From positions 1 to 64,000 of the forward strand of contig CAZUCE010000017.1 of the NCBI GenBank assembly GCA_964619265.1: DNA of 64,000 bases, in the 5' to 3' direction. Below, in pieces: positions 34,679 to 62,543 of the stretch. The notes under the pieces are model-generated. The model did no database searches and was not told the DNA's origin. It saw only the letters and a list, made by a program, of their open reading frames with translations. Source of the stretch: an uncultured Planctomycetaceae bacterium. Lineage in GTDB: Bacteria; Planctomycetota; UBA1135; GCA-002686595. The translations under genes and the position numbers were made by a program. Each line of letters opens with the position of its first letter. Positions within the stretch are counted from its first letter, which is position 1.

Positions 34679-34867
34679 TGAGTCGTCCTCGTCGTAGCGC
34701 GGGCCGGTCATGGTAGGAGCCGCTGGCGAGCGTTGCGAATGCCGTGGCGGTTGGCCCGAAGGTTGCTTGAGGTCCGAGCGGTCCGCCCAAAGGTGGCTCT
34801 GGGGTGCCCCACGCGGCTTGCCTCGGAGCCCCCTTTGAGCCTGTGATGGCGGACCCACGGTTCCCCC

Positions 34868-49056: not shown

Positions 49057-50010
49057 TCAAGCCCAGGCGCCCCGTCCGCGAAAGGCCTCGCGGGCAGGGC
49101 CGGCTAACCAAAGGGCGGACTGCCCGTCCCAGCGGGCGATCAGCGTGCCGCCCGGCTGGCGGATCGATAGTTCATGGCCTTCGGACACGGCTCCAAGGGA
49201 TGTGAAGGCCACGGTGATGGCGCACGCACTGGAACCGCAGGCCAGCGTTTCCCCCGAGCCTCTCTCGCAGGTTCGCGAGGTGATCAGGCCCTCCGAATCG
49301 AGGTGAGCGAAGGCGACGTTGACGCCTTCGGGAAAGGCGGGATGGGCTTGGAGAGCGGCTCCGAGTTCAGGGACCGGGAGCTTCGCCGGCGGAGCTTTCA
49401 AGGGGATGACCAAGTGCGGATTGCCAACCGACAGCGCCAGTCCCTCCCAGGTTTCGCCGAGGGCCGGAAGCCGGATCGAAAGGGCCTTTTGAACCGAAGC
49501 GGGAGCAGTCTCGAGCTGCTTGACGTCGAGAGGGATGTGTTCGGGATCGAAACGAGGGGATCCGATCTCGACTTCGCACCACACGACTCGTCCGTTCTCC
49601 CGGTGGGCGAGCACCCGGTGGGCAGCGGCGTCGGTTTCCACCAGGAATTCTTCGAGCTGAGAGGCTTCGGAGTCCCCGATGAGTTTGACGAGGCAGCGCA
49701 CAGCGTTACCGCACAGGGAGCCGCGACTTCCGTCAGCGTTCCACATGATCATGCGGAGCTGGCCGGCCCTGACGGTTCGGCGGAACAGGACGAGTCCGTC
49801 GGCCCCGACGCCAAAGTGCCGGTGACAGAGGCGGGTGGCGTTGCGCGGTGCGTCCAGCTCGAAGCGCTCGGCTAGGTCGCCTGGAAGCGCATCCCCATCC
49901 ACGAACAGGTAGTCATTGCCGCAACCCTCCAGCTTTACGAAGTCGAGGGCGGTGCGGGGCTCCGCTGAGTCCGGGCGACGGGCAGGAATCGGGGGCGGAG
50001 CGGAGGACAT
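49057..50010 (-). CDS. dapF: diaminopimelate epimerase
   Basis: GCGNDYLFVD, and NADGSRGSLCGNAVRC and ERGSGETLACGS active-site cysteines. About 20-aa N-terminal extension. Confidence 0.9.
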   Translation of the reverse strand: MSSAPPPIPARRPDSAEPRTALDFVKLEGCGNDYLFVDGDALPGDLAERFELDAPRNATRLCHRHFGVGADGLVLFRRTVRAGQLRMIMWNADGSRGSLCGNAVRCLVKLIGDSEASQLEEFLVETDAAAHRVLAHRENGRVVWCEVEIGSPRFDPEHIPLDVKQLETAPASVQKALSIRLPALGETWEGLALSVGNPHLVIPLKAPPAKLPVPELGAALQAHPAFPEGVNVAFAHLDSEGLITSRTCERGSGETLACGSSACAITVAFTSLGAVSEGHELSIRQPGGTLIARWDGQSALWLAGPAREAFRGRGAWA

Positions 50011-50490: not shown

Positions 50491-52518
50491 ATGTTCCTTG
50501 CCGAACGACTCGCGTTACTTGATGTTTCCAAGCGCACCCTTCTTGGCCTCAGTCCGGGGCTGATGCTCGGCCCAGGGCTGCTGCTGTGGACTCCTGTTGC
50601 CTTCGGGCAAACTTATTTCGAGGACGTCACCCTCGACCTTGGCGTTGCCTTTGAGCACGCCGACGGAAGCTTCACTTACGCGATGGGCGGCGGCGCGGCT
50701 TGGCTTGACTACGATCGCGACGGCGATGACGATCTCTTGGCGTCTAGCTCGGACGGCCGGCACGGTTTGTTCCGGAACGAGGGATCCAGTTTCACGGACG
50801 TCAGTGCAAGTTCGGGCCTGTTTGTTTCGCAGCTAACGGACTCGATCGGTTCGCTCGTATTCGATCACGACTCCGATGGTTGGATCGACATCTACTTCAC
50901 GAATGCCGATCGAAACGAGCTGTTTCGCAATGCGGGGGACGGGACCTTTGACGAAATCGGCGGTTCGCTCGGGATCGATTCGGACTCCTGGACTTCCTGC
51001 GCGGCCGCGGCCGACTTTGATCTGGACGGAGACCTCGACCTGTACCTAGGGAATTACATCGAGACCCTGAACTTCCCGTATCACTTCGGGGCACCGAATC
51101 AGTTTTTCCGGAATGTTGGGACCGCTACGGAGCCGGCCTTCGAGGAACAAGCTGTTGCGCTCGGGATCGACAACACGATTGTGTTCGGGGCCGGCAATCC
51201 GTTGTTTCCCCAGTTCCTCGCTCCGACTGGGCTGCCGAGCGGAGGCTGCACGCTTTCGGTGGTCACCCCTGATCATGACGAAGACGGGGATCCGGACCTG
51301 ATGGTCGGCAACGACTTTGGGCTGTTCGTCTCGCCCAACCGGTTTTTCCGAAACGACTTCGCGCCGGGGACTGGGCTGGTTTTTGCCGATGTGACCACCC
51401 AAACCGGCTTCGACGTCCGGCCGCATTACAACATGGGCATCGCGCAATGCGACTTTGACCACGACGGAGATTGGGACTACTACAAGTCGAGCCTGGGCGA
51501 CAATCTGCTGCTGCGCAACGACGACGGCTTGTTCACGGAAGTGGTCTATGACGCTGGCCCAGTGGAAGGGCAGAGTCCGGTCCCGGGTCTGCTGCTCACT
51601 TCCTGGGGCACTGTTTTTCAGGATCTCGACAACGACGGCTGGGAAGATCTCTATGTGTCGAATGGCCTGATTCCGGCCGCGAATTTTATTCTCAACGACG
51701 AGGATGCACCGAACGGCTTGCACCTGAACAACGCCGATGGGACCTTCACTCAGGTTCCGTATGCGGACTCGGGAGCTGACGACCAGGGCGCGGGGCGTGG
51801 TGTGGCCTGGTACGACGTCGATCGCGACGGGTTGTTGGATTTTTACCAGATGAACAACGGCGCGCCCGGCGTCGGAGAATTGGGCGAGCGCTGCGCGCTG
51901 TATCGCAACACCGCGGCGTCCCTTGGCGAGGTGGGTTCCTATGCGCGCGTTCGGCTGCGGTCGCGTGCGGACAACTGGGAGGCCATCGGTTCGAGGCTGG
52001 TTCTAGAGGCAGGTGACTTGACCCTGCGCCGGCAGATCACCGCTGACCAGATTTACCTGTCGAGCCCCAGCCGCGAAGTCCACTTCGGATTGGGCGACAA
52101 CGCCTTCGTGGATCGCGTGTCGATCGACTGGCAAACCGGAGTCCATTCGGAGCTAGTGGACCTTCCGGCGCCGGTCACCGGAGAGGTGCTTGAGCCCATC
52201 GCGCTCATGACCGAATTGCTCGACCCGGTTTGGATCCCAAGCGAGGCACACCTTCGGTTCCAAGTCAGGCTTGTGAACACGACCGATGCTCCGCTGACGG
52301 TCAGCGGCCTGTTGCAGATAGCCCTGCCCGACAAAACGAGCGTGGTCGATTTGCCTTCCTCGGCGACACTCCCGCCCGGCGAGACGCTGGTGACCCAAGT
52401 CTTGAGGGTTGCTCCTGAGGTGCACGCGTTGTTTGAGGGACAGCCCTTCCGCGTGAGGGCCTACGTGGTAGCCGATGGTGGCGTGGACAGCCGGGCCCTC
52501 GATTTTCTGCTTCCCTAG
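50491..52518 (+). CDS. secreted FG-GAP/VCBS-repeat protein with C-terminal ASPIC/UnbV domain (CRTAC1-like)
   Basis: Signal peptide. Repeated FDHDSDGWIDIY / DFDLDGDLDLY / DHDEDGDPDL calcium-binding FG-GAP motifs. UnbV_ASPIC motif YLSSPSREVHFGLGD..VDRVSIDWQTG. Confidence 0.8.
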   Translation: MFLAERLALLDVSKRTLLGLSPGLMLGPGLLLWTPVAFGQTYFEDVTLDLGVAFEHADGSFTYAMGGGAAWLDYDRDGDDDLLASSSDGRHGLFRNEGSSFTDVSASSGLFVSQLTDSIGSLVFDHDSDGWIDIYFTNADRNELFRNAGDGTFDEIGGSLGIDSDSWTSCAAAADFDLDGDLDLYLGNYIETLNFPYHFGAPNQFFRNVGTATEPAFEEQAVALGIDNTIVFGAGNPLFPQFLAPTGLPSGGCTLSVVTPDHDEDGDPDLMVGNDFGLFVSPNRFFRNDFAPGTGLVFADVTTQTGFDVRPHYNMGIAQCDFDHDGDWDYYKSSLGDNLLLRNDDGLFTEVVYDAGPVEGQSPVPGLLLTSWGTVFQDLDNDGWEDLYVSNGLIPAANFILNDEDAPNGLHLNNADGTFTQVPYADSGADDQGAGRGVAWYDVDRDGLLDFYQMNNGAPGVGELGERCALYRNTAASLGEVGSYARVRLRSRADNWEAIGSRLVLEAGDLTLRRQITADQIYLSSPSREVHFGLGDNAFVDRVSIDWQTGVHSELVDLPAPVTGEVLEPIALMTELLDPVWIPSEAHLRFQVRLVNTTDAPLTVSGLLQIALPDKTSVVDLPSSATLPPGETLVTQVLRVAPEVHALFEGQPFRVRAYVVADGGVDSRALDFLLP

Positions 52519-52628: not shown

Positions 52629-52865
52629 TACTGCCACTTGTGAGGCTACGCGGAGCAAGCGGCGAGTTACGCCGCTGCGATTCGCGAAGCCACTGGCCTG
52701 GAGGTTCAGACCGAGGCCGGGACTCGCCGCGGGCAATTCGAGGTGTTCGTGAACGACAGCTCGACCTTCAAGCGGCGCGGAGGACTGATCAAGAGGATTC
52801 TCGGCAAGCCCTTCGAGCCGCCCGATCAGGCGATCGAAGCCGTGCGGGCTGCCGTCGCCAAGTGA
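52611..52865 (+). CDS. selW: SelW-like (Rdx family) selenoprotein with in-frame UGA (Sec) at 52641-52643: MNVRIVYCHL-U-GYAEQ...GQFEVFVNDSSTFKRRGGLIKRILGKPFEPPDQAIEAVRAAVAK
   Basis: Not in the ORF track because of the internal TGA. ATG 52611; C-x-x-U redox motif (YCHLU) exactly where Rdx proteins have CxxC/CxxU; the rest matches the Rdx consensus (FEV..dg..ifsk....fP). Sustained codon bias through and beyond the TGA. 84 aa. Confidence 0.7.
52655..52678 (+). promoter_or_regulatory. candidate bacterial SECIS element (9-bp stem with 1-nt bulge, AGUUA loop) starting 11 nt after the UGA
   Basis: GC(A)AGCGGCG-AGUUA-CGCCGCUGC. The spacing to UGA (11 nt) matches the canonical bacterial SECIS geometry. 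Confidence 0.55.
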
Positions 52866-53614
52866 GCGCTTCCGAAGATTGCGGCAAGTGGGACTTTTAC
52901 ACGTGTCAGGTTGAAGATCGGCCGGGATCGATCTTCCTGAACCTGGATCTAGCGGGGGAACATCCGCCGCTCGACACGATGTACTTCGCGGCGATCGAGC
53001 TACTGGACCCCGCAGAGCACGGGATGGGATCCAAGGCCGAGGCGGAACTCATGGGACCCCTTGAGGACGGCATCCTGGAGGAACTGCGGGCCATGGGGTT
53101 GTGCTTTGTTGGCCGGCTGCGGAACAACTCGGCCTGGCAGTTGACGCTTTATGGGGAAGCCGGGCGTGACGCGGATTTGGAGCAAGTCATCTCCGAGGCT
53201 CTCCAGGGCGGGAAGCGCCGTTTTCAGGTTGGAAGCGGGCCGGACCCGGAGTGGAGCTACTACCACGGGTTCCTCTATCCGAACACCGAGCGCTGGCAGT
53301 GGATGCAGGATCGCAAGGTGGTTCAGGCCTTGACGAACAACGGAGACGCCGGCCAGCGTTCCCGCGAAGTCGATCATTGGGCCGGGTTCGAAGCGGAGCC
53401 CTCTCGTGCGGCTTTTGTGGCTTCCGCGGAGAAGCTCGGGTTCTCGGTTCGCGCGTTGCCCGAACCGAAGGGGGGGCTCTATTTGGTTCAGGTCGTTCGC
53501 GAAGATCCAGTGCTGCTCGAGCACATCCATCCGGTCGTGATGCAGCTCGTCGATTTGGCGGAGCAGAACGGCGGGACCTATGACGGCTGGGAGTCTCCGG
53601 TCGTGTCGACCTGA
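52862..53614 (+). CDS. DUF695 + RraB (regulator of ribonuclease activity B)-like two-domain protein
   Basis: GTG 52862 overlaps the selW stop (GTGA). DCGKWDFYTCQVEDRPGSIFLNLDL (DUF695-like) then a YYHGFLYPNTERWQWM ... RraB-like C-terminus. The first 74 residues of the ORF-track version are selW read in another frame. Confidence 0.7.
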   Translation: MSASEDCGKWDFYTCQVEDRPGSIFLNLDLAGEHPPLDTMYFAAIELLDPAEHGMGSKAEAELMGPLEDGILEELRAMGLCFVGRLRNNSAWQLTLYGEAGRDADLEQVISEALQGGKRRFQVGSGPDPEWSYYHGFLYPNTERWQWMQDRKVVQALTNNGDAGQRSREVDHWAGFEAEPSRAAFVASAEKLGFSVRALPEPKGGLYLVQVVREDPVLLEHIHPVVMQLVDLAEQNGGTYDGWESPVVST

Positions 53615-53675
53615 TCCAAGCGACCTTCGGAACGCCCGGGTTGCTCGGGCGCGAGCGCGTCCGATCTATGAAGTC

Positions 53676-53720
53676 GGCCCGATCTCTCCCCCCGGAGAGA
53701 TCGGGCCTTTCGCTTCTTCC
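53676..53720. terminator. bidirectional terminator: 14-bp perfect stem GGCCCGATCTCTCC / GGAGAGATCGGGCC, loop CCCC, then TTTCGCTTCTTCC
   Basis: Seen directly between convergent genes. Confidence 0.65.
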
Positions 53721-53779
53721 CTAATGTCCGGCAGGCTCCCGGGTGGGGGCCGCCGGCACCTTTGGACCGTTGCTTGAGA

Positions 53780-54658
53780 TCAGTTGCGGGGGATCAGCTG
53801 CAGGGGCTGTTCGCTATGCAGGATCGTCGTGGCGCGGGTCTCGTCCTCGAGTTCCATACGAGCCATGTCTTCGTAGGAGACCTGACGAGTTTGGTTGGTG
53901 AGGACGTCGAGTTCAGCCTCTTGGCGACTCGTGATGGCGTTCAGGCGACCGACCACGTCGTCGAGCTTGGCGGCCTGGTAGCGGTTCAGTTCGTCGAGCG
54001 TGTGCTGACGCTTCTCCATCATTTCGATCAGGCGCTCGTTGCGGGCGATGGCGTCGACTTGGCGCTCGATGGAGACGAGTTGGGCCTGGAATTGGGCTTG
54101 CTCGGTTTGCAGTTGTTGGAGGGCTTGCTCAAGACGATCGCGCTGATCGGATAGCACAGCGATTTCGCGGCCCGCTTCGGAAGCGCGGTTGGAATAGACC
54201 AAGCGCGTCTGCTGGATCTGGTGCTGGCGAGTCACGAGCTGTTGGGTGTCGTAGCCCGCTTGAGCGACCTGAATGTTGGAAGCCGGACGGAGTCCTTCGA
54301 GGCCGCCGAGTTGCTCGCCGAGGGCGGTGAGGTCCCGGTCGGCGAGCTCGACGACGCGTTCGGCGATCGCGGTCTCGCGGCGGGCTCGCTCGATCTCTTG
54401 GTTGACCTCAGCCACATCGGCAGACAAGGTGGCGATCCGCTCGGGATAGGCCTGTTCGAGGCGGCGGAGTTGGGAGCGCAGGGCGGTCGGGTCGTCAACG
54501 GCGGCGTCCAGACGTTCGTGGATGCCCTGCTGAACCTGGGAGATCAGCGCGTCGGTGCGCTCGGTTCCGAGGACGGAAGAGCCGACCGCAAGGGCGCCGA
54601 GGCCGAGGCCGCCGACGACGGCGGCGCGGAACGCGAATTTGAAGACTTTGGTGATCAT
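53780..54658 (-). CDS. membrane-anchored coiled-coil protein (292 aa)
   Basis: ATG revcomp 54656-54658. An N-terminal TM (FKFAFRAAVVGGLGLGALAV) followed by Q/E/R-rich coiled-coil. Confidence 0.55.
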   Translation of the reverse strand: MITKVFKFAFRAAVVGGLGLGALAVGSSVLGTERTDALISQVQQGIHERLDAAVDDPTALRSQLRRLEQAYPERIATLSADVAEVNQEIERARRETAIAERVVELADRDLTALGEQLGGLEGLRPASNIQVAQAGYDTQQLVTRQHQIQQTRLVYSNRASEAGREIAVLSDQRDRLEQALQQLQTEQAQFQAQLVSIERQVDAIARNERLIEMMEKRQHTLDELNRYQAAKLDDVVGRLNAITSRQEAELDVLTNQTRQVSYEDMARMELEDETRATTILHSEQPLQLIPRN

Positions 54659-55045
54659 GGGAGTTGGGCCTTTCGGAGGTTGGTGCTCAGGCTTTCGGGC
54701 CACCCCGCTTGGGTGGCCGCGCCGAGAGCCTTCGGAGCGCTGGCGGGTCTTCCCGCCGGCCCTGTGGTCTCGTGCCTAGTTCTTGGGGAAAGGCCCCGGG
54801 GGCTTTCGCTCCTGGGGGAAAATTCCCCCGGCGAACCGACTGGGGCAGCCGGGAGGCCCGCTTAGGGGAGGCGAGACCCCTCTGCGAGTGGCTGAAACCG
54901 CCGGACGGCCCCATCGGAAGCTGTCTCCGAATGCCCTCCGCCCTGCGGCGTAGAGTTGGGGGACGGGCTGTCAGGCCCGGCCCCCTGGCTTCTTCCAAGG
55001 GCTGGGGGCTTTCTTCAGCCCGATTCGAATCCCCGGTTCCCCCCT

Positions 55046-55807
55046 ATGGTTGTCGACATCACCACCGGCTTCGTCGGACGCCTGCGCGCTCGCGATCCTG
55101 ACGCTTGGTTCGAACTGTGGGAGACGTTTGGGCCCGTGATCAGTTCGCAACTCCAGCGCTGGGGGCGTGGCCAAATCGGCTTCGAGACGGTTCAAGATCT
55201 CTCCCAGGAAACGCTGACGGCTCTGGCTAGCGCGATCGACACCCACGATCCCTCGCGAGGAGTGCGCTTTTCGACCTGGCTGCTGGCGATCGCGCGCTAC
55301 ACGCTCACCGACGAATTCGACCGCCGCAACGCCCAGAAGCGGGGTTCTGGCAAGAAGCCTGTCGAGCTCGAGGCCGCCTCGGGCCAGGGCGACGGTCAAG
55401 CCGGGCCCGATGAGGTTTACGCCACGGCGATCTTCGGCGCCAAGGTCGATCGAGCCCTCAAGCTGGTCGAGCGCGAATCGGACTTCGTCGACTTCTCCGT
55501 CTTCCGGATGCGGATCCTCGAGGGTCAACCCGGCAAGCGGGTCGCCGGGGATCTGGGCCTTTCAGAGGCGGGAGTCAGCCGGCGGCTCACGAAGGTCCGA
55601 ACCGCCCTTAGAAGTCGCCTCAGCGAGGTCATGGAGCGATTCAGCTTCACGGAAGAGGAATTGAGCGAAGCGGAGCGCAAGGGGCTCGATCCAAATCCCA
55701 AGAAGGCTCAGGACGCCCTCTTCGATGAGGCGCTGGCGGAGATTTTCCATCGCTACAGCGCTTTTCGAACCCAAACCGAGGGGCCGGCGGGGGGCCTGGC
55801 CCGCTAG
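55046..55807 (+). CDS. RNA polymerase sigma factor, ECF family, with about 60-aa C-terminal extension
   Basis: Sigma-2 (LSQETLTALASAIDTHDP..FSTWLLAIARYTLTDEFDRR) and sigma-4 (GDLGLSEAGVSRRLTKVRTALR) regions. ATG 55046. Confidence 0.85.
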   Translation: MVVDITTGFVGRLRARDPDAWFELWETFGPVISSQLQRWGRGQIGFETVQDLSQETLTALASAIDTHDPSRGVRFSTWLLAIARYTLTDEFDRRNAQKRGSGKKPVELEAASGQGDGQAGPDEVYATAIFGAKVDRALKLVERESDFVDFSVFRMRILEGQPGKRVAGDLGLSEAGVSRRLTKVRTALRSRLSEVMERFSFTEEELSEAERKGLDPNPKKAQDALFDEALAEIFHRYSAFRTQTEGPAGGLAR

Positions 55808-55886
55808 CCGCCGAGGACCTCCCCGTCTTCGAGCCGCAGACTCCACAGAGCCACCGCCCAACCAAGCCTCCCCAAGGAGCCCGCCC

Positions 55887-58559
55887 ATGTCCGCCTTCTC
55901 AGGTGCCCTCTTTTCCTTTGTCGCTGCAGCGGCCGTGGTTTCCGCGGCCCTGGTGGCGGTGTTCGTGGTGGCCAAGGTTGCTTGGGGCATCGGTATGGCG
56001 ATCGGCGGAGTGTTCACCGGTGTTGGGCGGTTCGTCCTGCATATCGCCTCGACGCTGCGCGATTGGGTCACGGACGTCACTCGGATCCTGGGCGGAACCC
56101 TCACCGGCGTCGCCTACGTTCCGCTCTCCCTGTTCAGCGTCGCGCTTGGTCGCTGGTCGAGCGCGAAGCACTACGGCAAGGCGATGCGCGGCGAGTTTGG
56201 GCTCGCGGCGCTGTCGACCTACAAAGCCGGTATCTCGCATCCCCTGCGACTGATCGGTCTTGGTTCTCTACTCGATGGCTTTGAGCGCCGCCTGCCCGAG
56301 GTGGTGCTGTACGCGCCCGGCGCTGACACGCCGAAGGAAGGCAAGAACGCGTTCGAGGGCTGGAAGGTCGTGGGCTCGCTGCCGGCCGGAGGGTCTGGGG
56401 GCAAGCTGTACCTAGCCGAGCCGAAGGCCGAGAAAGTCGAGAAGCTTGCGCGGGTTGGCGTGACGGCCCCCGCCAAAGCGGTGATCAAGTCGTTCTCGTT
56501 GGCTTCGGGCTCGACCCTGCCCCAAATAGTTCGTGAGAGTCGCGCGCTCGAGGCGGCCAAAAGCCTCGGCCTGGTGGTGGAACACGAGCTGAGTCCGACG
56601 CGTTTCCACTATGTGATGCCGTTCGTGCCGGGGGAGGACCTGTCCAAGGTCTCGACCGCCCTGCACTCGCGGGCCGGCCGCAACGGCTTGCGCGACGCTG
56701 GCATTCGTGCCGTCATCGGCTATGGCGCTGGGCTGTGTGAAATTCTCGATCGCTTCCACGCGGCGGGCCTTTGGCACAAGGACATCAAGCCCTCGAACAT
56801 TCTGGTGTGCGGGGACCGCGTGGAACTGGTCGACCTAGGACTGGTGACGCCGCTCGGTTCGGCGATGACGCTGACCACCCACGGTACCGAGTACTACCGC
56901 GACCCCGAGATGGTCCGCCTCGCGCTCAAGGGCGTGAAGGTTCACGAAGTCGATGGCGTCAAGTTCGATCTCTACTCGACCGGCGCGGTGCTGTACTCGC
57001 TTGTGGAGGGCTCCTTCCCGGCGCATGGCAACCTCTCGAGTTTCTCGAAGCGTTGCCCGGACGCGCTGAGCTGGGTGATCCGCCGTGCGATGGCGGATGT
57101 CAACCAGCGCTACGCCGGCGCTGACGAGATGCTGACCGATTTGCGAGTCTTGCTCGCCGCAACCGATCCGTTCAGCGTAAAGCCGGCCGATTTGCCCTCC
57201 ATGGGCGGCAGCCGCTCCGCGGTACGTCCCGTGCCGGCGCCGCCGGAAGAACTGGTTCCCGCCGAGTTCGCCTCCGATACGGACACTCCTTCCCCGGATG
57301 CCTCCGAGGGAGCCCCGCCGCCGTTGCCGTTGCACCGGCTTTCAGCGCACGAGTTGCGCCAAGAAGTTCGTCGCGCCGCTCGCGACACAGCACGGGAGGC
57401 TCGCGTGCGTGCTCGCCGCGTGGGTTCCCAAGCGAGGAAGGAAGCTCGGGCCGCGGCGGGTAGGGCTACTTTGGAGGCTCGCCAGGCACTGCGCGCGGCC
57501 AACGTGCGCGCCAAGGAGCAGGCTCGCGCCGCTTTTGCGGCGTCCGAGGAGTGGCACGTCAAGCGCCGCATGACGAAGGAGAAGTCTCGCCAGGAAACCC
57601 AGGAGAGGCGGAAGACCCGTTCGCGTCAGAGCGCTACCGGCTTCCTCGCGCTGTTTGCGGTCGGTTTCCTGTGGATCGTTGCCATGAGTTCGAACGGGGA
57701 ACGTCCGGGCGGCGGAAATCCGGTGGAGGTGCCCGTTGTTCAAGGGCTGATCCGGGCGCAGTCCAAGGAGATTCAGAGGGTCCACGAGCAACTCATCAGC
57801 CAGGGCCGCACCACCCCGCGTCCGCCGCGCAGCCTGAATTCAACCGGCAGCCTGACTTCAGCCGGAGGCAAGCAAGCTCCCCAGGTCCTCCTGCTCTCCG
57901 AGCGCCCGCTGGTCGCCGGCGTGGACGCCGAACGCCGGCTCGCCGCGGCCCTCGAGCAACAGCTCGGCTGGCGCGTGCTCGGCGAAGAAGGAACTCTCCC
58001 GCGAAGCGGCTCCGAGTTGGACCTGCTGGCTCGGGTTCGCAGCACGGCAGGCCTCAGTTCGCTGGGCGACAGCGCGGCTTCCAAGCGACTGGTCGATCTG
58101 ATCGAACGCCGCGACGACCTGGACGCGATCGTGTGGTTCGGAGTTGACGAAGGTGAACACCTCCAGGTCGAGCTGCTGGCCCCGCGCAATACAGATTGGG
58201 GGGCTCAATGGGACCTCGGACGGGTGCGGCCAAACGAACCTAGCCGGACTCCGGATCAGCTCTCCCGAGATTTGCGTGGGCTGGAGCGGGATCTGAGAGA
58301 GCTGTTCGACCAGATGGGTTCGAATCAGGTTCTGCGCCAGGCGTTCGAGTCCCGGGAGTTCGAAGGCGGCTTCGAGAATCAGTTCCAGGGTTTGGAGCGG
58401 TTTGAGGGTCGGGAAGTCCTCGAAAACAGCCTGTTCGGCGAGCCCATCCAACAGGAGTGTGGTGGCTCCGAACCGGCGCCCTCGTGCCAGAGCCTGATGG
58501 AGTCCTGCTGGGAGGAGCCGGGCTCCTGCGCAAACGGGCGGCTCGCTCACGCCGGCTAA
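55887..58559 (+). CDS. polytopic membrane Ser/Thr protein kinase (N-terminal TM bundle, kinase core, TM, large C-terminal extracytoplasmic domain)
   Basis: ATG 55887 preceded by AAGGAG. 3-4 N-terminal TM helices, kinase motifs (KAVIKSF, WHKDIKPSNILV, VDLGL, YYRDPE), a second TM (FLALFAVGFLWIVAM), and a 280-aa C-terminal domain. Confidence 0.8.
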   Translation: MSAFSGALFSFVAAAAVVSAALVAVFVVAKVAWGIGMAIGGVFTGVGRFVLHIASTLRDWVTDVTRILGGTLTGVAYVPLSLFSVALGRWSSAKHYGKAMRGEFGLAALSTYKAGISHPLRLIGLGSLLDGFERRLPEVVLYAPGADTPKEGKNAFEGWKVVGSLPAGGSGGKLYLAEPKAEKVEKLARVGVTAPAKAVIKSFSLASGSTLPQIVRESRALEAAKSLGLVVEHELSPTRFHYVMPFVPGEDLSKVSTALHSRAGRNGLRDAGIRAVIGYGAGLCEILDRFHAAGLWHKDIKPSNILVCGDRVELVDLGLVTPLGSAMTLTTHGTEYYRDPEMVRLALKGVKVHEVDGVKFDLYSTGAVLYSLVEGSFPAHGNLSSFSKRCPDALSWVIRRAMADVNQRYAGADEMLTDLRVLLAATDPFSVKPADLPSMGGSRSAVRPVPAPPEELVPAEFASDTDTPSPDASEGAPPPLPLHRLSAHELRQEVRRAARDTAREARVRARRVGSQARKEARAAAGRATLEARQALRAANVRAKEQARAAFAASEEWHVKRRMTKEKSRQETQERRKTRSRQSATGFLALFAVGFLWIVAMSSNGERPGGGNPVEVPVVQGLIRAQSKEIQRVHEQLISQGRTTPRPPRSLNSTGSLTSAGGKQAPQVLLLSERPLVAGVDAERRLAAALEQQLGWRVLGEEGTLPRSGSELDLLARVRSTAGLSSLGDSAASKRLVDLIERRDDLDAIVWFGVDEGEHLQVELLAPRNTDWGAQWDLGRVRPNEPSRTPDQLSRDLRGLERDLRELFDQMGSNQVLRQAFESREFEGGFENQFQGLERFEGREVLENSLFGEPIQQECGGSEPAPSCQSLMESCWEEPGSCANGRLAHAG

Positions 58560-58634
58560 CCGGGGCCGTGTGCTGAGAGCAGGGCTTGGGGCGAAGGGAC
58601 GGCAGCGGTGGGCTAAGCTTCAAGGGCCCCCATC

Positions 58635-60131
58635 ATGTTTCCCGCAGACCTCGCTTCCTCTCCGCCGACCCGCAGCCCAGCGCTGGCGCTGGCACTCCTG
58701 GCCGCCTCCTGCGGGCGACCGGCTGGGGACCTCGATTCGGGGCCGGCGCCGGCCGAGACTTCCCAGCCGCCGCTGCTCGTGATCTCGCTCGACACCCTGC
58801 GCGCGGATCGCTTGGGCTGTTATGGATACGAGCGACCGACTTCCCCTGCGGTGGACTCGCTTGCGGCGGGCGGCGTTCTGTTCGAAGACGTGGCTTCCCC
58901 CTCGGCGAAGACGGCAACTTCGCACATGTCTATGTTCACCGGGCTGCACCCGGGCGTCCATGGGGTTCGCAACACCTACGGAGGCACTGCGTTCGCTCCC
59001 CACCGAGATTTGATCACGATCTTCGAGGCGGCCAAGCGCGACGGCTATGTCACGGTCGGTTTCACCGGCGGCGGGATGATGTCGGCCGAGCTTGGCTTCG
59101 GCCGGGGATTTGACCTGTACGACGCGCGCGGTGGGGGCGGCGATCGAGTCTTTGCTCGCGCCAGCGAATGGCTGGAAACCGAAGTGGCGTTGATCGAAGA
59201 CGAGCCGCTGGCGCTGCTGGTGCACACCTACGAGATTCACGATCCGTACACGCCGCCGGCCCCCTGGCGCGAACGATTCGTCGACCCGGACTACGCGGGC
59301 GCGATCGACCCCACGCGGGTCGAGTTGCCGATCGACGCCGCCGAAACCTGGAAGACGAACCCCCAGTTTTATACAGAGGTTCAGGATCGATTCTGGGGTG
59401 GTTACGACGGCGCGAGCACCGCGGACCTCGCGTACTTGAGCGACCTGTACGACGCAGGCATCGCCTACACCGACTCACTGCTGGGGGAATTTCTGACCGA
59501 CGTCTCCGCAACACGGCTCGGCCGGGAGGGGCTGATCGTTCTGACCTCCGATCACGGGGACGAGTTCTCCGAGCATGGCAATCTGACCCACCAGTCGATT
59601 TACCAGGAAATCCTGCATGTGCCGCTGGTGTTTCGATTGCCGCCCGGTGATCCGGATGCGGCCGTTCGAGCTGGCGCTCGCATCCAGCGTCCGGTGCGCG
59701 GCATCGATCTGGGGCCTAGCCTGGCCGAGTGGTGCGGGGTCGCTCTGTCCGAGCAGGTACAGGGAATCTCGCTGTTGCCCGAAGTCCGCGGTGGCGTGGC
59801 TCTCAATCTACCGACCTGGTCCGAGATCGGTTCGGTGGCCAACGAATTCGCCAGTCTTCGGGACGGGCCCTACAAGTTGATCGCGCGCAAAGCTGAAACC
59901 GGCTTGGGCGAACTCTACGACTTGAATCTCGATCGCGGCGAGCGCTTCGATCGGCGCGAGGCCTACCCCGAAAAGTTCGAGCAGTTCCGATCCGAGCTAG
60001 ACCGAATCGTTCAGGCCCATCGTGACCTGGCGGTTCGTTTCCCCCCCGCGGTCGTCGAGATGGGGGCCGAAGCACTCGGTGCGTTGCAGGCGCTTGGGTA
60101 TACCGAAGAGAGCAAGAAAGAGGAGGAATAA
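58635..60131 (+). CDS. sulfatase-like hydrolase/transferase lipoprotein (alkaline phosphatase superfamily)
   Basis: ALALLAASCG lipobox. LLVISLDTLRADRLGCYG metal-binding N-terminus and a DHGDEFSEHGNLTH C-terminal metal site. The nucleophile region is SPSAKTATSH rather than C/S-x-P-x-R. Confidence 0.75.
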   Translation: MFPADLASSPPTRSPALALALLAASCGRPAGDLDSGPAPAETSQPPLLVISLDTLRADRLGCYGYERPTSPAVDSLAAGGVLFEDVASPSAKTATSHMSMFTGLHPGVHGVRNTYGGTAFAPHRDLITIFEAAKRDGYVTVGFTGGGMMSAELGFGRGFDLYDARGGGGDRVFARASEWLETEVALIEDEPLALLVHTYEIHDPYTPPAPWRERFVDPDYAGAIDPTRVELPIDAAETWKTNPQFYTEVQDRFWGGYDGASTADLAYLSDLYDAGIAYTDSLLGEFLTDVSATRLGREGLIVLTSDHGDEFSEHGNLTHQSIYQEILHVPLVFRLPPGDPDAAVRAGARIQRPVRGIDLGPSLAEWCGVALSEQVQGISLLPEVRGGVALNLPTWSEIGSVANEFASLRDGPYKLIARKAETGLGELYDLNLDRGERFDRREAYPEKFEQFRSELDRIVQAHRDLAVRFPPAVVEMGAEALGALQALGYTEESKKEEE

Positions 60132-60136
60132 GCCGA

Positions 60137-60171
60137 AACCCAGCGCGAGGTTTGCGCCTCGCACTGGGTTT
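60137..60171. terminator. bidirectional hairpin (AAACCCAG..GCGAGG..CCTCGC..CTGGGTTT) between convergent sulfatase-like and TelA-like genes
   Basis: Seen directly, 6 nt after the TAA stop. Confidence 0.45.
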
Positions 60172-60207
60172 CAAGTCAAAGGGCCTCTGGCCTGATTCTT
60201 CGCAGAC

Positions 60208-61404
60208 TCAGGACTCGAGCGCAAACTTGGCCAACGTCTGCTGGACCTTGCGCTTGCCATCCTCGACCACGCGACGGATCTCTTTCGCGTTTTCTTCGCT
60301 CTCCCGTCGCAGCTCCGCGATCATCTCAAGCGATTCGACCTGGTAGGAGGAGATCGCGTTGACGAGCTTCTCGACGGACTCGGGGCTGATGGTGGACCCG
60401 TACCCTGCTTTCAGCGCGGCACGTTCCAGTTCGCGCCCCAGCTCGGCGACATCTTCGATGCCTTTGTTGACGCCTTCCTTCATGGCCTCGGTCGATTGGG
60501 TCGCCTCGTGCAGGCCGTGCTGGGAGGTGTAAACCGCGCCAAGGATCGTGAAGACGTGCTCGTTGGTGGTGAAGAAGGTCACCGAACGACGGTAGACCTG
60601 GTCTTTTACATCATGCGTTTGCTTTAGCTTCGCGATCAGCGTCTCGCCAACGTCGTAGCCGATCGACAAGTTCTCGGCGATGTCCTTGATGAGCTGGAAG
60701 GCGCGGTCCTGGACGCTGAACAGGTGGTTGGCCTCGTCGCGCTTGAGCTCGAGCTTGGATTTGTCGTTTTCGGCGTCGCCGGCGTAAGCGTCGACGGCTT
60801 CCTGGGCCGCTTTGAGCTGAGCCCGGTGCTCTTCGAGGATCTCTGACTGCATGACTTGCAGTTCGCGAGCTGCGACCTCGGATTCCTTGAGGGCGAAGCG
60901 GAAGTCGATGTAGCCATCCATGATGGCCTGTTCCTTCTCGAGCTGCGTGCGCGTGTCCTTGGACACGTCCTGATAGACCTCGGTGATCTTCTCGAAACGA
61001 TCCGAGGGCGTGCCGCGGCGAATCTTCATCCAGACGTTCGAGACTTTCTCGGTCAGGCTGATTTTGCCATCGTCCAGTTGAGCGATCAGGCGCTTCGAGT
61101 CGTCGCGGACCGAGTCGAACAGTTGCGTGATCTCCATGTAGCGGTTGCCGATTTGAATGTCCTGGACGTTGTCCCGGACCATGGCATTGAACGCGCTCAT
61201 GTATTTGACGGTCTTGGCGATCGAGAGCACGCGGGCCTCGTCGATGGGGCGTACCTCATCGAGCAGGCGCGTCAATTCGGGTTGCTGGTCGTCCTTGGGA
61301 AGGATTCCGTAGTCGCCGAGCACCTCGACGGCACGGTCCAGATACTTGGCGAGGCCGCGCGTTTCGGGCACGACGGCGGGGTGAGTGGTGGACTCGGGGC
61401 TCAT
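60208..61404 (-). CDS. TelA/YaaN-like (toxic anion resistance family) all-alpha protein
   Basis: ATG revcomp 61402-61404, preceded by AGGAGG at -7. 398 aa, all-helical with the TelA-like length and pattern. The family assignment is from memory and not verified. Confidence 0.6.
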   Translation of the reverse strand: MSPESTTHPAVVPETRGLAKYLDRAVEVLGDYGILPKDDQQPELTRLLDEVRPIDEARVLSIAKTVKYMSAFNAMVRDNVQDIQIGNRYMEITQLFDSVRDDSKRLIAQLDDGKISLTEKVSNVWMKIRRGTPSDRFEKITEVYQDVSKDTRTQLEKEQAIMDGYIDFRFALKESEVAARELQVMQSEILEEHRAQLKAAQEAVDAYAGDAENDKSKLELKRDEANHLFSVQDRAFQLIKDIAENLSIGYDVGETLIAKLKQTHDVKDQVYRRSVTFFTTNEHVFTILGAVYTSQHGLHEATQSTEAMKEGVNKGIEDVAELGRELERAALKAGYGSTISPESVEKLVNAISSYQVESLEMIAELRRESEENAKEIRRVVEDGKRKVQQTLAKFALES

Positions 61405-61502: not shown

Positions 61503-62543
61503 TTGACCGAGTCCTCCGCCAGCCCGACCGAGCCAGCCCCGGGTCCCAGCTCCACGAGCCTGGGCCGGCGCCCGGTCGGTGCGTCGCTGGAGCCGGCGCT
61601 GCCCGGTTCGACGGACGATTTGGCGCTGAACGAGATGCTCCAGATCCTCGATGCGGCCAGCACGCTGAGGAAGGAGCGCACCAAAGCGAGTCTGGCGCTT
61701 GAGGACCACGAAACGAAGCGGATGCTGCGCGATCGCCTGCTGGAGGCCGCGAGGGTTTCTGGCGACCGCGTGACCGACGCCGAAGTCGAGGCGGCGATCG
61801 AACGTTACTACGCAACGCTGCACGCCTTCGAGCCGGCGGAAGCCGGCCTGGAACGCTGGTTGGCCCATCTTTACATTCGGCGTGGCCGCATCGTCGCGAT
61901 CGGCGGGGGAGTCCTTGTCTGGCTCGGCCTGGTTTGGTGGTTGTTCCTTTCAGGCTCCGGTCCGTTCTCCAGCTCCGGACGTGAATCGCGCGCTCTGCGC
62001 AGCGCGATGGAGAGTATCGAGTCCAACCACTCCGAACTCACCGCCCTCGCGATCGACCCCGGCGTCGACGCTCAACTCGACCAGACTCTTCGCCGTGCGC
62101 GGGATCTAGAGCAAGCGCGGAGCGTCAATGAGCTGAAAGAGCTCGATGCGGAGTTGGACAAACTCGGTCAGCAGCTCCGGCGCGAGTTTCGCTTGTTGGT
62201 GGTGTCCGAATCCGGCGAACTCTCCGGCGTGATTCGAGATTTTGACGGCGAGCTCTCTGGCCACTACCTGATTGTCGAAGCGGAAGGCCCGGATGGGAAG
62301 CCTGTTCGGCTTCCGGTGCGGTCGGCTGAATTCGATCGGGTGCGTGTCGTTGCGCGCTGGGGTGAGTGGGTTCCCGAAGCCGTTTACAATCGGATCCTTG
62401 CGGACAAACGTGCCGATGGGATCGTCGACGAGCGGCTGGTCGCTGAAAAAGAACGCGGACGACTCGAGCTCCAGATTCGACTGCTTGGCGCCGATGGCGC
62501 GCCGGTGGAATTGCGACGCCAGATCACGGAGTGGGACGAGTAA
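61503..62543 (+). CDS. single-TM hypothetical protein (346 aa)
   Basis: TTG start at 61503; an alternative ATG lies at 61635. TM IVAIGGGVLVWLGLVWWLFL. Divergent from the TelA-like gene. Confidence 0.5.
   Translation: MTESSASPTEPAPGPSSTSLGRRPVGASLEPALPGSTDDLALNEMLQILDAASTLRKERTKASLALEDHETKRMLRDRLLEAARVSGDRVTDAEVEAAIERYYATLHAFEPAEAGLERWLAHLYIRRGRIVAIGGGVLVWLGLVWWLFLSGSGPFSSSGRESRALRSAMESIESNHSELTALAIDPGVDAQLDQTLRRARDLEQARSVNELKELDAELDKLGQQLRREFRLLVVSESGELSGVIRDFDGELSGHYLIVEAEGPDGKPVRLPVRSAEFDRVRVVARWGEWVPEAVYNRILADKRADGIVDERLVAEKERGRLELQIRLLGADGAPVELRRQITEWDE

What the first reader, a model, noticed from the sequence alone, without database searches (positions are those of the whole stretch)
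55046..60131. ECF sigma factor with C-terminal extension, followed by a polytopic membrane Ser/Thr kinase and a sulfatase-like lipoprotein
ECF sigma factors are usually paired with anti-sigma factors. Here the downstream gene (80-nt gap, same strand) is an 890-aa Hanks-type kinase with an unusual topology: 3-4 TMs N-terminal to the kinase core, another TM after it, and a large extracytoplasmic C-terminal domain. No anti-sigma is evident. ECF groups linked to Ser/Thr kinases have been predicted but are poorly characterised experimentally. The sigma also has a 60-aa C-terminal extension, and the next gene is an alkaline-phosphatase-superfamily lipoprotein lacking the Cys/Ser-x-Pro-x-Arg formylglycine sulfatase motif.
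Basis: partly seen in the sequence, partly recalled or inferred. Interest (0 to 1): 0.55.

Follow-up and report, generated by a model that had tools for sequence, protein, structure and literature searches.

The report
Kinase-linked sigma factor module, Planctomycetota

Summary
Window 55046-55807 encodes a 253-aa ECF-type sigma with a conserved 58-aa helical C-terminal extension. 55887-58559 encodes an 890-aa catalytically intact Hanks kinase with transmembrane segments on both sides of the kinase core. 58635-60131 encodes a Thr-type (not formylglycine) sulfatase-family lipoprotein.

Across more than 80 Planctomycetota loci the conserved unit is different. It is a divergent gene for a membrane-anchored coiled-coil protein (53780-54658, minus strand), then the sigma, then the kinase. 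The sulfatase-like gene is missing even in an 85%-identical relative.

No anti-sigma domain was found. In sigma region 2.2 the usual DxxDxxQE is T48-V-Q-D51-L-S-Q54-E55, which is not the uncharged ECF43 pattern.

A bipartite promoter-like motif, TTGGGA-N15-TTTCA, lies upstream of the sigma gene in 49 of 53 loci. It recurs on the opposite strand inside the sigma ORF in 54 of 61 loci. There it is held by strong selection on synonymous sites (AAT in 57 of 57 Asn codons at position 217; CGA in 79% of the 53 codons scored at position 211).

Best reading: a kinase-controlled, self-activating sigma module with convergent promoters. It is a new variant of a known kind (kinase-linked ECF sigmas). Phosphorylation and promoter activity are inferred, not shown.

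The parts
53780..54658 (-). Divergent gene for a 292-aa membrane-anchored coiled-coil protein ('up292'). An alternative GTG start at 54703 would give 307 aa. It is the third conserved member of the module.
   Evidence: tblastn finds it on the minus strand directly upstream of the sigma in nearly all loci with enough flank, at 32-54% identity. A homologue in the 43%-identity branch scores hhalign probability 99.7%. It has one N-terminal hydrophobic segment preceded by K/R residues, then about 260 aa of coiled coil. Only generic coiled-coil matches appear in Pfam and PDB.
54783..54808 (+). Promoter-like bipartite motif upstream of the sigma gene (P_sigma): TTGGGG (54783-54788), 15-nt spacer, TTTCG (54804-54808). 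It lies about 240 nt before the sigma ATG.
   Evidence: The consensus gTTnTTGGGA-N15-(a/c)TTTCA has fixed spacing and is found on the sigma strand in 49 of 53 intergenic regions (PWM score >=12; the 99th percentile of shuffles is 8.2). The window site scores 29.0 and is the only + strand hit >=14 in the 64 kb.
55046..55807 (+). ECF-type sigma factor, 253 aa. Sigma2 is roughly residues 1-98, a disordered basic linker (KRGxGKKP) follows, sigma4 is roughly 123-198, and a conserved helical C-terminal extension covers 199-253.
55676..55701 (-). Second copy of the same bipartite motif on the opposite strand, inside the sigma ORF (P_as): TTGGGA (55701-55696), 15-nt spacer, TTGCG (55680-55676). It overlaps codons R211 to K219 (RKGLDPNPK). 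It points back through the sigma gene towards up292.
   Evidence: The window site scores 20.4 and is the only minus-strand hit >=14 in 64 kb. The same position scores >=12 in 54 of 61 orthologous ORFs; controls give 0 of 61 on the sigma sense strand and 2 of 60 per strand in the kinase ORF. Synonymous-site selection: third base A at codon 211 in 55 of 62 (expected 6.0, z=21); third base T at codon 217 in 61 of 62 (expected 13.5, z=14.7); AAT in 57 of 57 Asn codons against 16% background usage. The window's own -10-like box is the weaker TTGCG variant.
55887..58559 (+). Membrane Hanks-type Ser/Thr kinase, 890 aa. It has an N-terminal transmembrane hairpin region (1-88), juxtamembrane helices (90-142), the kinase core (about 150-430), a disordered then helical Arg/Ala-rich linker, a transmembrane segment at 581-604, and a variable extracytoplasmic C-terminal region.
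   Evidence: Across loci the catalytic domain is 54-70% identical and the N-terminal region 30-53%. The linker and most of the C-terminal region are not conserved.
58635..60131 (+). Sulfatase-family (alkaline-phosphatase superfamily) putative lipoprotein with a Thr-type nucleophile region. It is a neighbour, possibly co-transcribed here, and is not part of the conserved module.
   Evidence: PF00884 110 bits. It is absent downstream of the kinase in every other locus, including the 85%-identical relative.
60133..60174 (.). Terminator-like hairpin (18 pairs) between the sulfatase-like gene and the convergent gene at 60208-61404. It is the likely end of the rightward transcript.
   Evidence: This is a consensus scan only, and the total count in the region is not above that of shuffles.

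Best explanation
This is a conserved three-gene signalling module of one branch of Planctomycetota. Its parts are an ECF-type sigma factor with a built-in helical C-terminal extension, a co-transcribed membrane Hanks-type Ser/Thr kinase, and a divergently encoded membrane-anchored, probably periplasmic, coiled-coil protein.

Shown:
- The three genes travel together across the family.
- The kinase has every catalytic residue.
- No anti-sigma domain is present.
- A family-specific bipartite motif, TTGGGA-N15-TTTCA, sits upstream of the sigma gene.
- A second, inverted copy is kept by DNA-level selection inside the sigma ORF in the main branch. In one locus of a 43%-identity branch (L087) it lies in the intergenic region just upstream of the coiled-coil gene.

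Inferred:
- The kinase, rather than an anti-sigma factor, controls the sigma by phosphorylation. Candidate sites are the near-invariant T48 (which replaces the first Asp of region 2.2), S53 and T56, and S200/T202 at the hinge where the C-terminal extension begins.
- The conserved parts of the kinase are its N-terminal transmembrane and juxtamembrane region, while its outer domain varies. The signal is therefore probably sensed in or at the membrane, perhaps together with the coiled-coil protein.
- The active sigma recognises both motif copies. One raises transcription of its own operon (sigma and kinase). The other drives the coiled-coil gene.
- In the main branch this second promoter faces the first one across the sigma ORF. 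Induction would then also produce antisense transcription through the sigma gene, which would limit the positive feedback loop.
For: Synteny:
- 552 species-level genomes encode a relative. In the best 80 loci the order up292(-)/sigma(+)/kinase(+) holds wherever flanks exist.
- The order also holds at 43% identity.
- Sigma-kinase gaps are typically 5-75 nt, and four are 4-nt overlaps.

Family boundary:
- Full-length members extend down to 33-35% identity (E about 1e-27).
- The next hits are generic 200-aa ECFs at E about 1e-10 that lack the extension.

Sigma:
- ECF fold and domains.
- Region 2.2 aligns to CnrH DVDDVVQD, with T48 opposite the first Asp.
- ETV[QKER]D.SQET is conserved in 180 or more sequences.
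- The nearest generic ECFs mostly have Asp at that first position.
- The extension helices 203-211 and 220-245 are predicted with pLDDT 87-96, alongside sigma4 at 97.

Kinase:
- Catalytic residues are invariant.
- The topology is conserved.

Promoter motif:
- upstream copy; internal inverted copy and synonymous-site selection; both copies intergenic in the divergent branch.
- Extra minus-strand intergenic copies occur in some Phycisphaerales loci.

Precedent: direct phosphorylation activates the ECF43 sigmas EcfP and EcfK (PMC8999054, PMC13147305). Kinase-linked ECF groups typically lack anti-sigma factors (PMC7826278).
Against: - Nothing here shows phosphorylation, promoter activity or a transcription start.
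- D51, Q54 and E55 are invariant. From my own knowledge, not tested here, these correspond to the core-binding residues D403, Q406 and E407 of sigma70. The sigma may therefore bind core RNA polymerase without modification, unlike EcfP.
- The window's own internal copy has the weaker TTGCG box (score 20.4 against 29.0).
- The two most divergent loci (L088, L089) show no motif with this matrix and no adjacent up292.
- The motif lacks the AAC/CGT signature described as typical of ECF promoters (PMC8103513).
- I could not inspect model coordinates, so where the extension packs is unknown.
- Only the top AlphaFold model of the sigma was confident (79 against 61-67 for the other four).
Confidence: 0.55

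Rival explanations
1. This is an ECF43-type charge switch. The sigma cannot bind core RNA polymerase until the kinase phosphorylates the region 2.2 threonine (T48). That restores the missing negative charge of the DAED motif, and this is the whole mechanism.
For: T48 replaces the first Asp and is near-invariant. The nearest ordinary ECFs mostly keep Asp there. The mechanism has been demonstrated for EcfP, and in part for EcfK (PMC8999054, PMC13147305).
Against: The phospho-Thr of ECF43 is at the third motif position, within an otherwise uncharged QTTA/STTA. Here the fourth-position Asp (D51), the preceding Glu (E47), Q54 and E55 are all retained and conserved. EcfK, which also keeps a charge, does not depend on that Thr alone (PMC13147305). 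This reading gives no role to the conserved C-terminal extension or to S200/T202.
Confidence: 0.2
2. The kinase does not regulate the sigma. It is simply a co-transcribed output or a parallel sensor with other substrates. Sigma activity is set by transcription (the convergent promoters) or by an unlinked regulator.
For: The core-binding residues of region 2.2 are intact. The locus has an elaborate two-promoter layout that could regulate on its own. Planctomycetota encode very many kinases with diverse partners (PMC11032199).
Against: Strict adjacency and near-coupled translation hold across the whole family down to 32-43% identity. That is the pattern used to infer partnership in other ECF groups (PMC7826278). 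An ECF sigma that activates itself with no post-translational brake would be unusual.
Confidence: 0.15
3. The repeated bipartite motif is an operator for a separate DNA-binding regulator, for example one that loops the two inverted copies about 900 bp apart. It is not a pair of promoters read by this sigma.
For: There are two inverted copies per locus. The motif lacks the usual ECF AAC/CGT boxes. No transcript data exist.
Against: Two short boxes separated by a fixed 15-nt spacer of unconserved sequence is the architecture of a -35/-10 promoter. Each copy is oriented towards a gene of the module: the upstream copy in 49 of 53 loci, and the inverted copy in the one divergent-branch locus examined (L087), where it sits about 90 nt before up292. 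A group-specific motif upstream of an ECF gene is the usual signature of autoregulation (PMC8103513).
Confidence: 0.1
4. The divergent coiled-coil protein is an unconventional anti-sigma factor that holds the sigma at the membrane, and the kinase releases it.
For: It is the only other conserved partner, it is membrane anchored, and it appears to be co-regulated.
Against: Its N-terminal tail before the hydrophobic segment is 20 residues or fewer, and it carries the positive charges. The bulk of the protein should therefore face outward. It has no anti-sigma domain or zinc motif, and no match beyond coiled-coil noise. It is not adjacent in L088 or L089.
Confidence: 0.05

Closest known systems
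ECF43 sigma/kinase pairs: EcfP-PknT (Vibrio parahaemolyticus) and EcfK-PknS (Xanthomonas citri)
   Same: An ECF-type sigma is encoded next to a membrane Hanks kinase with no anti-sigma factor. A conserved Thr lies within the region 2.2 motif that normally contacts the beta' clamp. Direct phosphorylation is the demonstrated control in those systems (PMC8999054, PMC13147305).
   Different: The motif here is TVQD: Thr at position 1 and Asp kept at position 4. ECF43 has uncharged QTTA/STTA with the phospho-Thr at position 3. This sigma also has a conserved 58-aa helical C-terminal extension. The kinase has transmembrane helices before the catalytic domain as well as after it. There is a third conserved gene. 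The family is restricted to Planctomycetota and is separated from all other ECFs by a wide score gap.
Planctomycete kinase-linked ECF groups ECF59, ECF61, ECF62 and ECF217 (and the original ECF60), which are predicted only
   Same: Same phylum, same sigma-kinase gene pairing, and no anti-sigma factor (PMC7826278, PMC8999054). A Ser or Thr in or near the DAED motif has been noted for some of them (PMC8103513, PMC8999054).
   Different: Membership could not be tested. No group models or reference sequences were available, and the papers that describe these groups were not held. The named representatives come from Pirellulales and Planctomycetales. This family was found in the Engelhardtia/Rohdeia clade and in MAGs labelled Phycisphaerales or Planctomycetota.
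ECF sigmas regulated by fused C-terminal extensions (ECF41 SigJ, ECF42, ECF238 CorE)
   Same: A conserved extension follows sigma4 and no anti-sigma factor is present. In those groups the extension modulates activity by contacting the sigma domains (PMC8999054, PMC5766207).
   Different: Those extensions are larger folded domains (SnoaL_2, TPR, Cys-rich) and act without a partner kinase. Here the extension is two short helices with no Pfam match, and it co-occurs with a kinase.
Convergent-promoter and antisense autoregulatory layouts (general class)
   Same: Two promoters face each other across a regulatory gene, so transcription from one interferes with the other.
   Different: Here both promoters would be read by the protein encoded between them. 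One of them is written into that protein's own codons. I found no described ECF example in the held literature.

Membership tests
ECF (group 4) sigma-70 family | Sigma2 domain present | tested here: met
   PF04542 scores 40.1 bits (cut-off 24) and TIGR02937 scores 51.8 bits (cut-off 42.9).
ECF (group 4) sigma-70 family | Sigma4 domain present, with no sigma1.1 or sigma3 | tested here: met
   PF08281 reaches only 18.6 bits (cut-off 25.7). However, the AlphaFold model has a four-helix sigma4 (123-198, pLDDT 97) that matches SigL sigma4 in 3hug (TM-score 0.8 on the target) and whole ECF sigmas at probability 1.0. There is no domain between the linker and sigma4.
ECF43 (EcfP/EcfK type) | Hanks kinase gene adjacent and no anti-sigma factor | tested here: met
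ECF43 (EcfP/EcfK type) | Region 2.2 DAED replaced by uncharged residues, with a conserved Thr at the third position (QTTA/STTA) | tested here: not met
   The motif here is T48-V-Q-D51: Thr at position 1, Gln at position 3 and Asp retained at position 4. The definition is taken from PMC13147305 and PMC8999054.
ECF43 and ECF59/61/62/217 (ECF Hub groups) | Score above threshold with the group's own HMM (ECF Finder) | not testable with these tools
   No ECF Hub models or reference sequences were available. The NCBIfam planctomycete ECF subfamilies all score far below their cut-offs: TIGR02999 18.5/126, TIGR02989 23.7/125, TIGR02984 18.8/184.
Hanks-type (eukaryote-like) Ser/Thr protein kinase | Pkinase domain with the catalytic Lys, the alphaC Glu, HxD...N, and DFG/DLG | tested here: met
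   PF00069 scores 55.9 bits (cut-off 31.7). K201, E217, D299, N304 and D316 are invariant in 34 sequences. All five motif patterns (G-loop, catalytic Lys, HxD, DLG, GT..YRDPE) are matched by 80 of 120 homologues, and the HxD motif by all 120.
Formylglycine-dependent sulfatase | C/S-x-P-x-R motif for formylglycine generation | tested here: not met
   The corresponding stretch is T-A-T-S-H (AKTATSHMSMFTG), read from the translation. The PF00884 fold family is matched. Weak N-terminal matches to phosphoethanolamine-transferase models fit a Thr nucleophile.
Class I anti-sigma factor (tested for up292) | N-terminal cytoplasmic anti-sigma domain of about 70-90 aa before the transmembrane helix | tested here: not met
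   The hydrophobic segment starts within about 10-20 residues of the N-terminus. No anti-sigma Pfam family matches at E<=1 in 21 members.

The most novel reading that the evidence does not exclude
The sigma factor activates two facing promoters, and one of them is encoded on the antisense strand of its own C-terminal extension. Each burst of self-activation would then also transcribe the partner membrane-protein gene and send antisense transcription back through the sigma gene, making a self-limiting circuit. The PNPxKA loop of the protein, which is absent from the divergent branch where the second promoter is intergenic, would have been shaped largely by the need to spell a promoter on the other strand.
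Probability: 0.4. Interest if true: 0.7.

Novelty: new variant of a known kind. Interest (0 to 1): 0.55.

Why it matters
Direct control of sigma factors by Ser/Thr kinases has been demonstrated only for ECF43 in Proteobacteria. The planctomycete kinase-linked groups remain predictions.

This family is tight, very conserved and present in at least 552 species genomes. Two cultured hosts exist, Engelhardtia mirabilis Pla133 and Rohdeia mirabilis Pla163, with complete genomes. It offers specific candidate phosphosites, a defined candidate promoter, and a three-component design: kinase, sigma with built-in extension, and a periplasmic coiled-coil partner.

The promoter copy written into the sigma's own codons is a clear case of overlapping protein and DNA-level constraints. 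It predicts a testable convergent-transcription feedback. The work also removes the sulfatase-like gene from consideration.

Tried and rejected
- Rfam over the whole window: no match at gathering thresholds.
- Sigma-70-type promoter scan of 53600-60300: none found. Terminator-like sites were not above the shuffled count.
- Pfam at E<=1 and a PDB profile search for up292 gave only coiled-coil noise.
- NCBIfam gave no subfamily assignment for the sigma.
- The papers that define the planctomycete kinase-linked ECF groups and ECF43 (Jogler 2012, Iyer 2020, Wiegand 2020) are not held. The supplement of the reclassification paper is not held either. The ECF group could therefore not be assigned.
- Cluster names for divergent members and nearest outgroups were uninformative.
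- The two most divergent loci (L088, L089) gave no motif hit and no adjacent up292. This may reflect motif drift in lower-GC genomes.
- Long antisense ORFs within the sigma gene occur in the codon-aligned antisense frame (stop-free run of 150 aa or more in 54 of 62 loci). I treated them as the shadow ORFs expected in GC-rich coding DNA, not as genes.
- The sulfatase-like gene was considered as a module member or regulon target and rejected on synteny.
- A literature search for antisense promoters inside ECF genes found nothing relevant.
- I could not read model coordinates, so the contacts of the C-terminal extension and the number of N-terminal membrane passes remain unresolved.
Full report
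**What is in the window**

Sigma, 55046-55807, 253 aa:
- It scores above threshold for Sigma70_r2, Pfam Sigma70_ECF and TIGR02937.
- An AlphaFold model built on 25 homologues has pLDDT 79 and pTM 0.80. It shows a sigma2 helical bundle, a disordered basic linker (102-117), a four-helix sigma4 (123-198, pLDDT about 97), and two further confident helices (203-211 and 220-245).
- Foldseek places the model with sigmaE, AlgU, SigL, SigH, SigW and CnrH.
- It is therefore an ECF-type sigma with a 58-aa helical C-terminal extension.

Kinase, 55887-58559, 890 aa, 79 nt downstream of the sigma stop:
- It is a divergent but complete Hanks kinase.
- K201 (AVIK), E217, H297-K298-D299, N304, D316 (DLG) and an activation loop TLTTHGT are invariant in 34 aligned homologues.
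- Hydropathy shows hydrophobic blocks at 1-45 and 67-88 before the kinase core, and one at 581-604 after it. Sixty orthologues show the same layout.
- AlphaFold predicts long confident helices (2-86, 90-122, 126-142) before the core, and a helix from 487 running into the last transmembrane segment.
- I count 2-3 N-terminal membrane passes rather than 3-4.

Sulfatase-like gene, 58635-60131:
- It matches PF00884 and has a lipobox-like signal peptide.
- Its nucleophile region reads AKTATSHMSMFTG, which is Thr-type and lacks C/S-x-P-x-R.

**What is conserved elsewhere**

- The sigma has more than 1,600 close relatives at 60-70% identity over its whole length, extension included.
- A scan of one genome per species found 552 genomes with a relative. 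Nearly all are Planctomycetota MAGs. Two are cultured strains, Engelhardtia mirabilis Pla133 and Rohdeia mirabilis Pla163.
- In the 80 best loci the kinase follows the sigma on the same strand wherever sequence is available. Its catalytic domain is 54-70% identical and its N-terminal membrane region 30-53% identical. The linker and most of the outer C-terminal region are not conserved.
- Sigma-kinase gaps are mostly 5-75 nt, and four are 4-nt overlaps.
- A third gene is equally conserved: a protein of about 300 aa on the opposite strand directly upstream of the sigma (window 53780-54658). It has one N-terminal hydrophobic segment and a long coiled coil. It has no informative family or structure match.
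- The sulfatase-like gene appears only on the window's own contig. It is absent from the 85%- and 70%-identical relatives and from every other locus. It is a neighbour and not a component.

**How distinct the family is**

- In a search of 1.84 billion cluster representatives, full-length members extend down to 33-35% identity (E about 1e-27).
- The next matches are ordinary 200-aa ECFs at E about 1e-10 that lack the extension.
- A member at 43% identity (locus L087) still has the coiled-coil homologue (hhalign probability 99.7%), the sigma and the kinase in the same arrangement.
- The two most divergent loci keep the sigma-kinase pair but lack the adjacent coiled-coil gene.

**Region 2.2 and candidate phosphosites**

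- A profile alignment to CnrH puts T48 opposite the first Asp of DxxDxxQE.
- The family motif is E47-T48-V-Q-D51-L-S53-Q54-E55-T56. It is essentially invariant in more than 180 sequences. T48, D51, Q54 and E55 are retained in divergent members.
- The nearest ordinary ECFs mostly carry Asp at the first position.
- This differs from ECF43. There the motif is uncharged (QTTA; STTA in EcfP) and the phospho-Thr is the third residue (PMC13147305, PMC8999054).
- D51, Q54 and E55 correspond, from my own knowledge, to the key core-binding residues D403, Q406 and E407 of sigma70. Because they are intact, the sigma need not be inactive by default.
- Other conserved Ser/Thr positions are T6/T7, S76/T77, S173, T176, S178 and S200/T202. 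The last pair lies at the hinge before the extension.

**A conserved promoter-like motif, present twice**

- The intergenic regions between the coiled-coil gene and the sigma share a bipartite motif with fixed spacing, gTTnTTGGGA-N15-(a/c)TTTCA.
- It lies on the sigma strand 100-290 nt before the start codon in most loci, and is found in 49 of 53 loci. The 99th percentile of shuffled sequences is 8.2, and most real sites score 20-32.
- The window copy is at 54783-54808 (score 29.0). It is the only + strand hit in the 64 kb.
- The only other window hit is on the minus strand at 55701-55676, inside the sigma ORF.
- That position carries the motif in 54 of 61 orthologous ORFs. Controls give 0 of 61 on the sense strand and about 2 of 60 in the kinase ORF.
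- The internal copy overlaps codons R211 to K219 (R-N/K-G-L-D-P-N-P-x-K).

**Evidence that the internal copy is under DNA-level selection**

- Arg211 is CGA in 79% of the 53 codons scored at that position, against 6% background usage. The third base is A in 55 of 62 (z=21).
- Codon 217 ends in T in 61 of 62. It is AAT in 57 of 57 Asn codons, against 16% background usage. The T is kept even where the residue is Ser or Asp (z=14.7).
- Pro218 is CCC in 81% of sequences.
- No other codon in the gene exceeds z=6.4.
- Codon 217 is the only conserved column fixed on a disfavoured codon. The median pairwise codon identity at conserved residues is 0.47, so synonymous sites are otherwise well mixed.
- In the AlphaFold model these codons encode the loop between the two extension helices.
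- In the divergent branch this PNPxKA loop is absent.
- The one locus of that branch with the coiled-coil gene adjacent (L087) has both motif copies in its 137-bp intergenic region, one facing each gene.
- Some Phycisphaerales loci have an additional minus-strand copy just upstream of the coiled-coil gene.
- No minus-strand terminator-like site lies between the internal copy and the coiled-coil gene.

**Interpretation**

The best-supported reading is a self-contained module.
- The sigma is controlled by its partner kinase rather than by an anti-sigma factor.
- The sigma activates its own operon from the upstream motif.
- It activates the coiled-coil gene from the inverted copy.
- In the main branch the inverted copy sits inside the sigma gene, so the two promoters face each other across the ORF.

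Shown: the synteny, the intact kinase, the motif, and the synonymous-site selection.
Inferred: phosphorylation, the sites, recognition of the motif by this sigma, and any interference between the two promoters.

The conserved membrane-proximal part of the kinase and its variable outer domain suggest that sensing occurs in or near the membrane, possibly with the coiled-coil protein. That last point is speculation.

**Comparison with known systems**

- The module works like the kinase-linked ECFs, and that class is known (PMC7826278).
- It fails the defining region 2.2 feature of ECF43.
- Its membership of the planctomycete groups ECF59, 61, 62 and 217 could not be tested.
- Four features are not described for those systems in the literature I could read: the conserved extension, transmembrane helices before the kinase core, the third gene, and the promoter copy embedded in the coding sequence.
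- I therefore rate it a new variant of a known kind, of moderate interest. The embedded inverted promoter is the most unexpected element.

Noticed in passing
window 60208-61404 (-), 61503-62543 (+), and about 62548 onward (+): This is a small cluster of uncharacterised genes just past the sulfatase-like gene. It comprises a 398-aa helical protein with no family match, a DUF6384 protein (PF19911, 157 bits), and a 531-aa protein with no family match.
   Followed up: no
window 54982-55008 (+) and 54814-54829 (+): A terminator-like hairpin followed by CTTTCTTC lies 38 nt before the sigma start codon, inside the roughly 230-nt leader. A perfect GGGGGAAAATTCCCCC hairpin follows directly after the -10-like box. 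Neither was checked for conservation, and the terminator-like count is not above that of shuffles.
   Followed up: no
window 50491-52518 (+): An FG-GAP / ASPIC-UnbV repeat protein lies a few kb upstream of the module. It does so here and in Engelhardtia mirabilis and two closer relatives (L001, L085, L086). This is local synteny within that clade only.
   Followed up: partly
window 52862-53614 (+): A two-domain DUF695 + RraB (regulator of ribonuclease activity B) protein lies between the FG-GAP gene and the coiled-coil gene.
   Followed up: no
window 58380-58559 (kinase residues about 830-890): The kinase ends in a Cys-rich tail (ECGGSEPAPSCQSLMESCWEEPGSCANG). It has no counterpart in orthologues, whose C-terminal regions are shorter and variable. 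A weakly conserved small alpha/beta-like segment (VLVL.D ... LDAVLW.G) follows the last transmembrane helix in many orthologues.
   Followed up: partly
L001 4109-6574 (-), Engelhardtia mirabilis: In E. mirabilis an 821-aa protein with sigma-70 region 2/4 matches fused to a long extension (faint CarboxypepD_reg match) lies just beyond the coiled-coil gene. It is not conserved in other loci.
   Followed up: no
window 1-50000: The surrounding DNA is ordinary core chromosome: topoisomerase I (13109-15847), MutS (31901-34858, minus strand), PEP carboxykinase (39769-41427), pentose-phosphate genes (about 45.3-49 kb) and DapF (49057-50010, minus strand). The module is therefore not on a mobile element.
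   Followed up: partly
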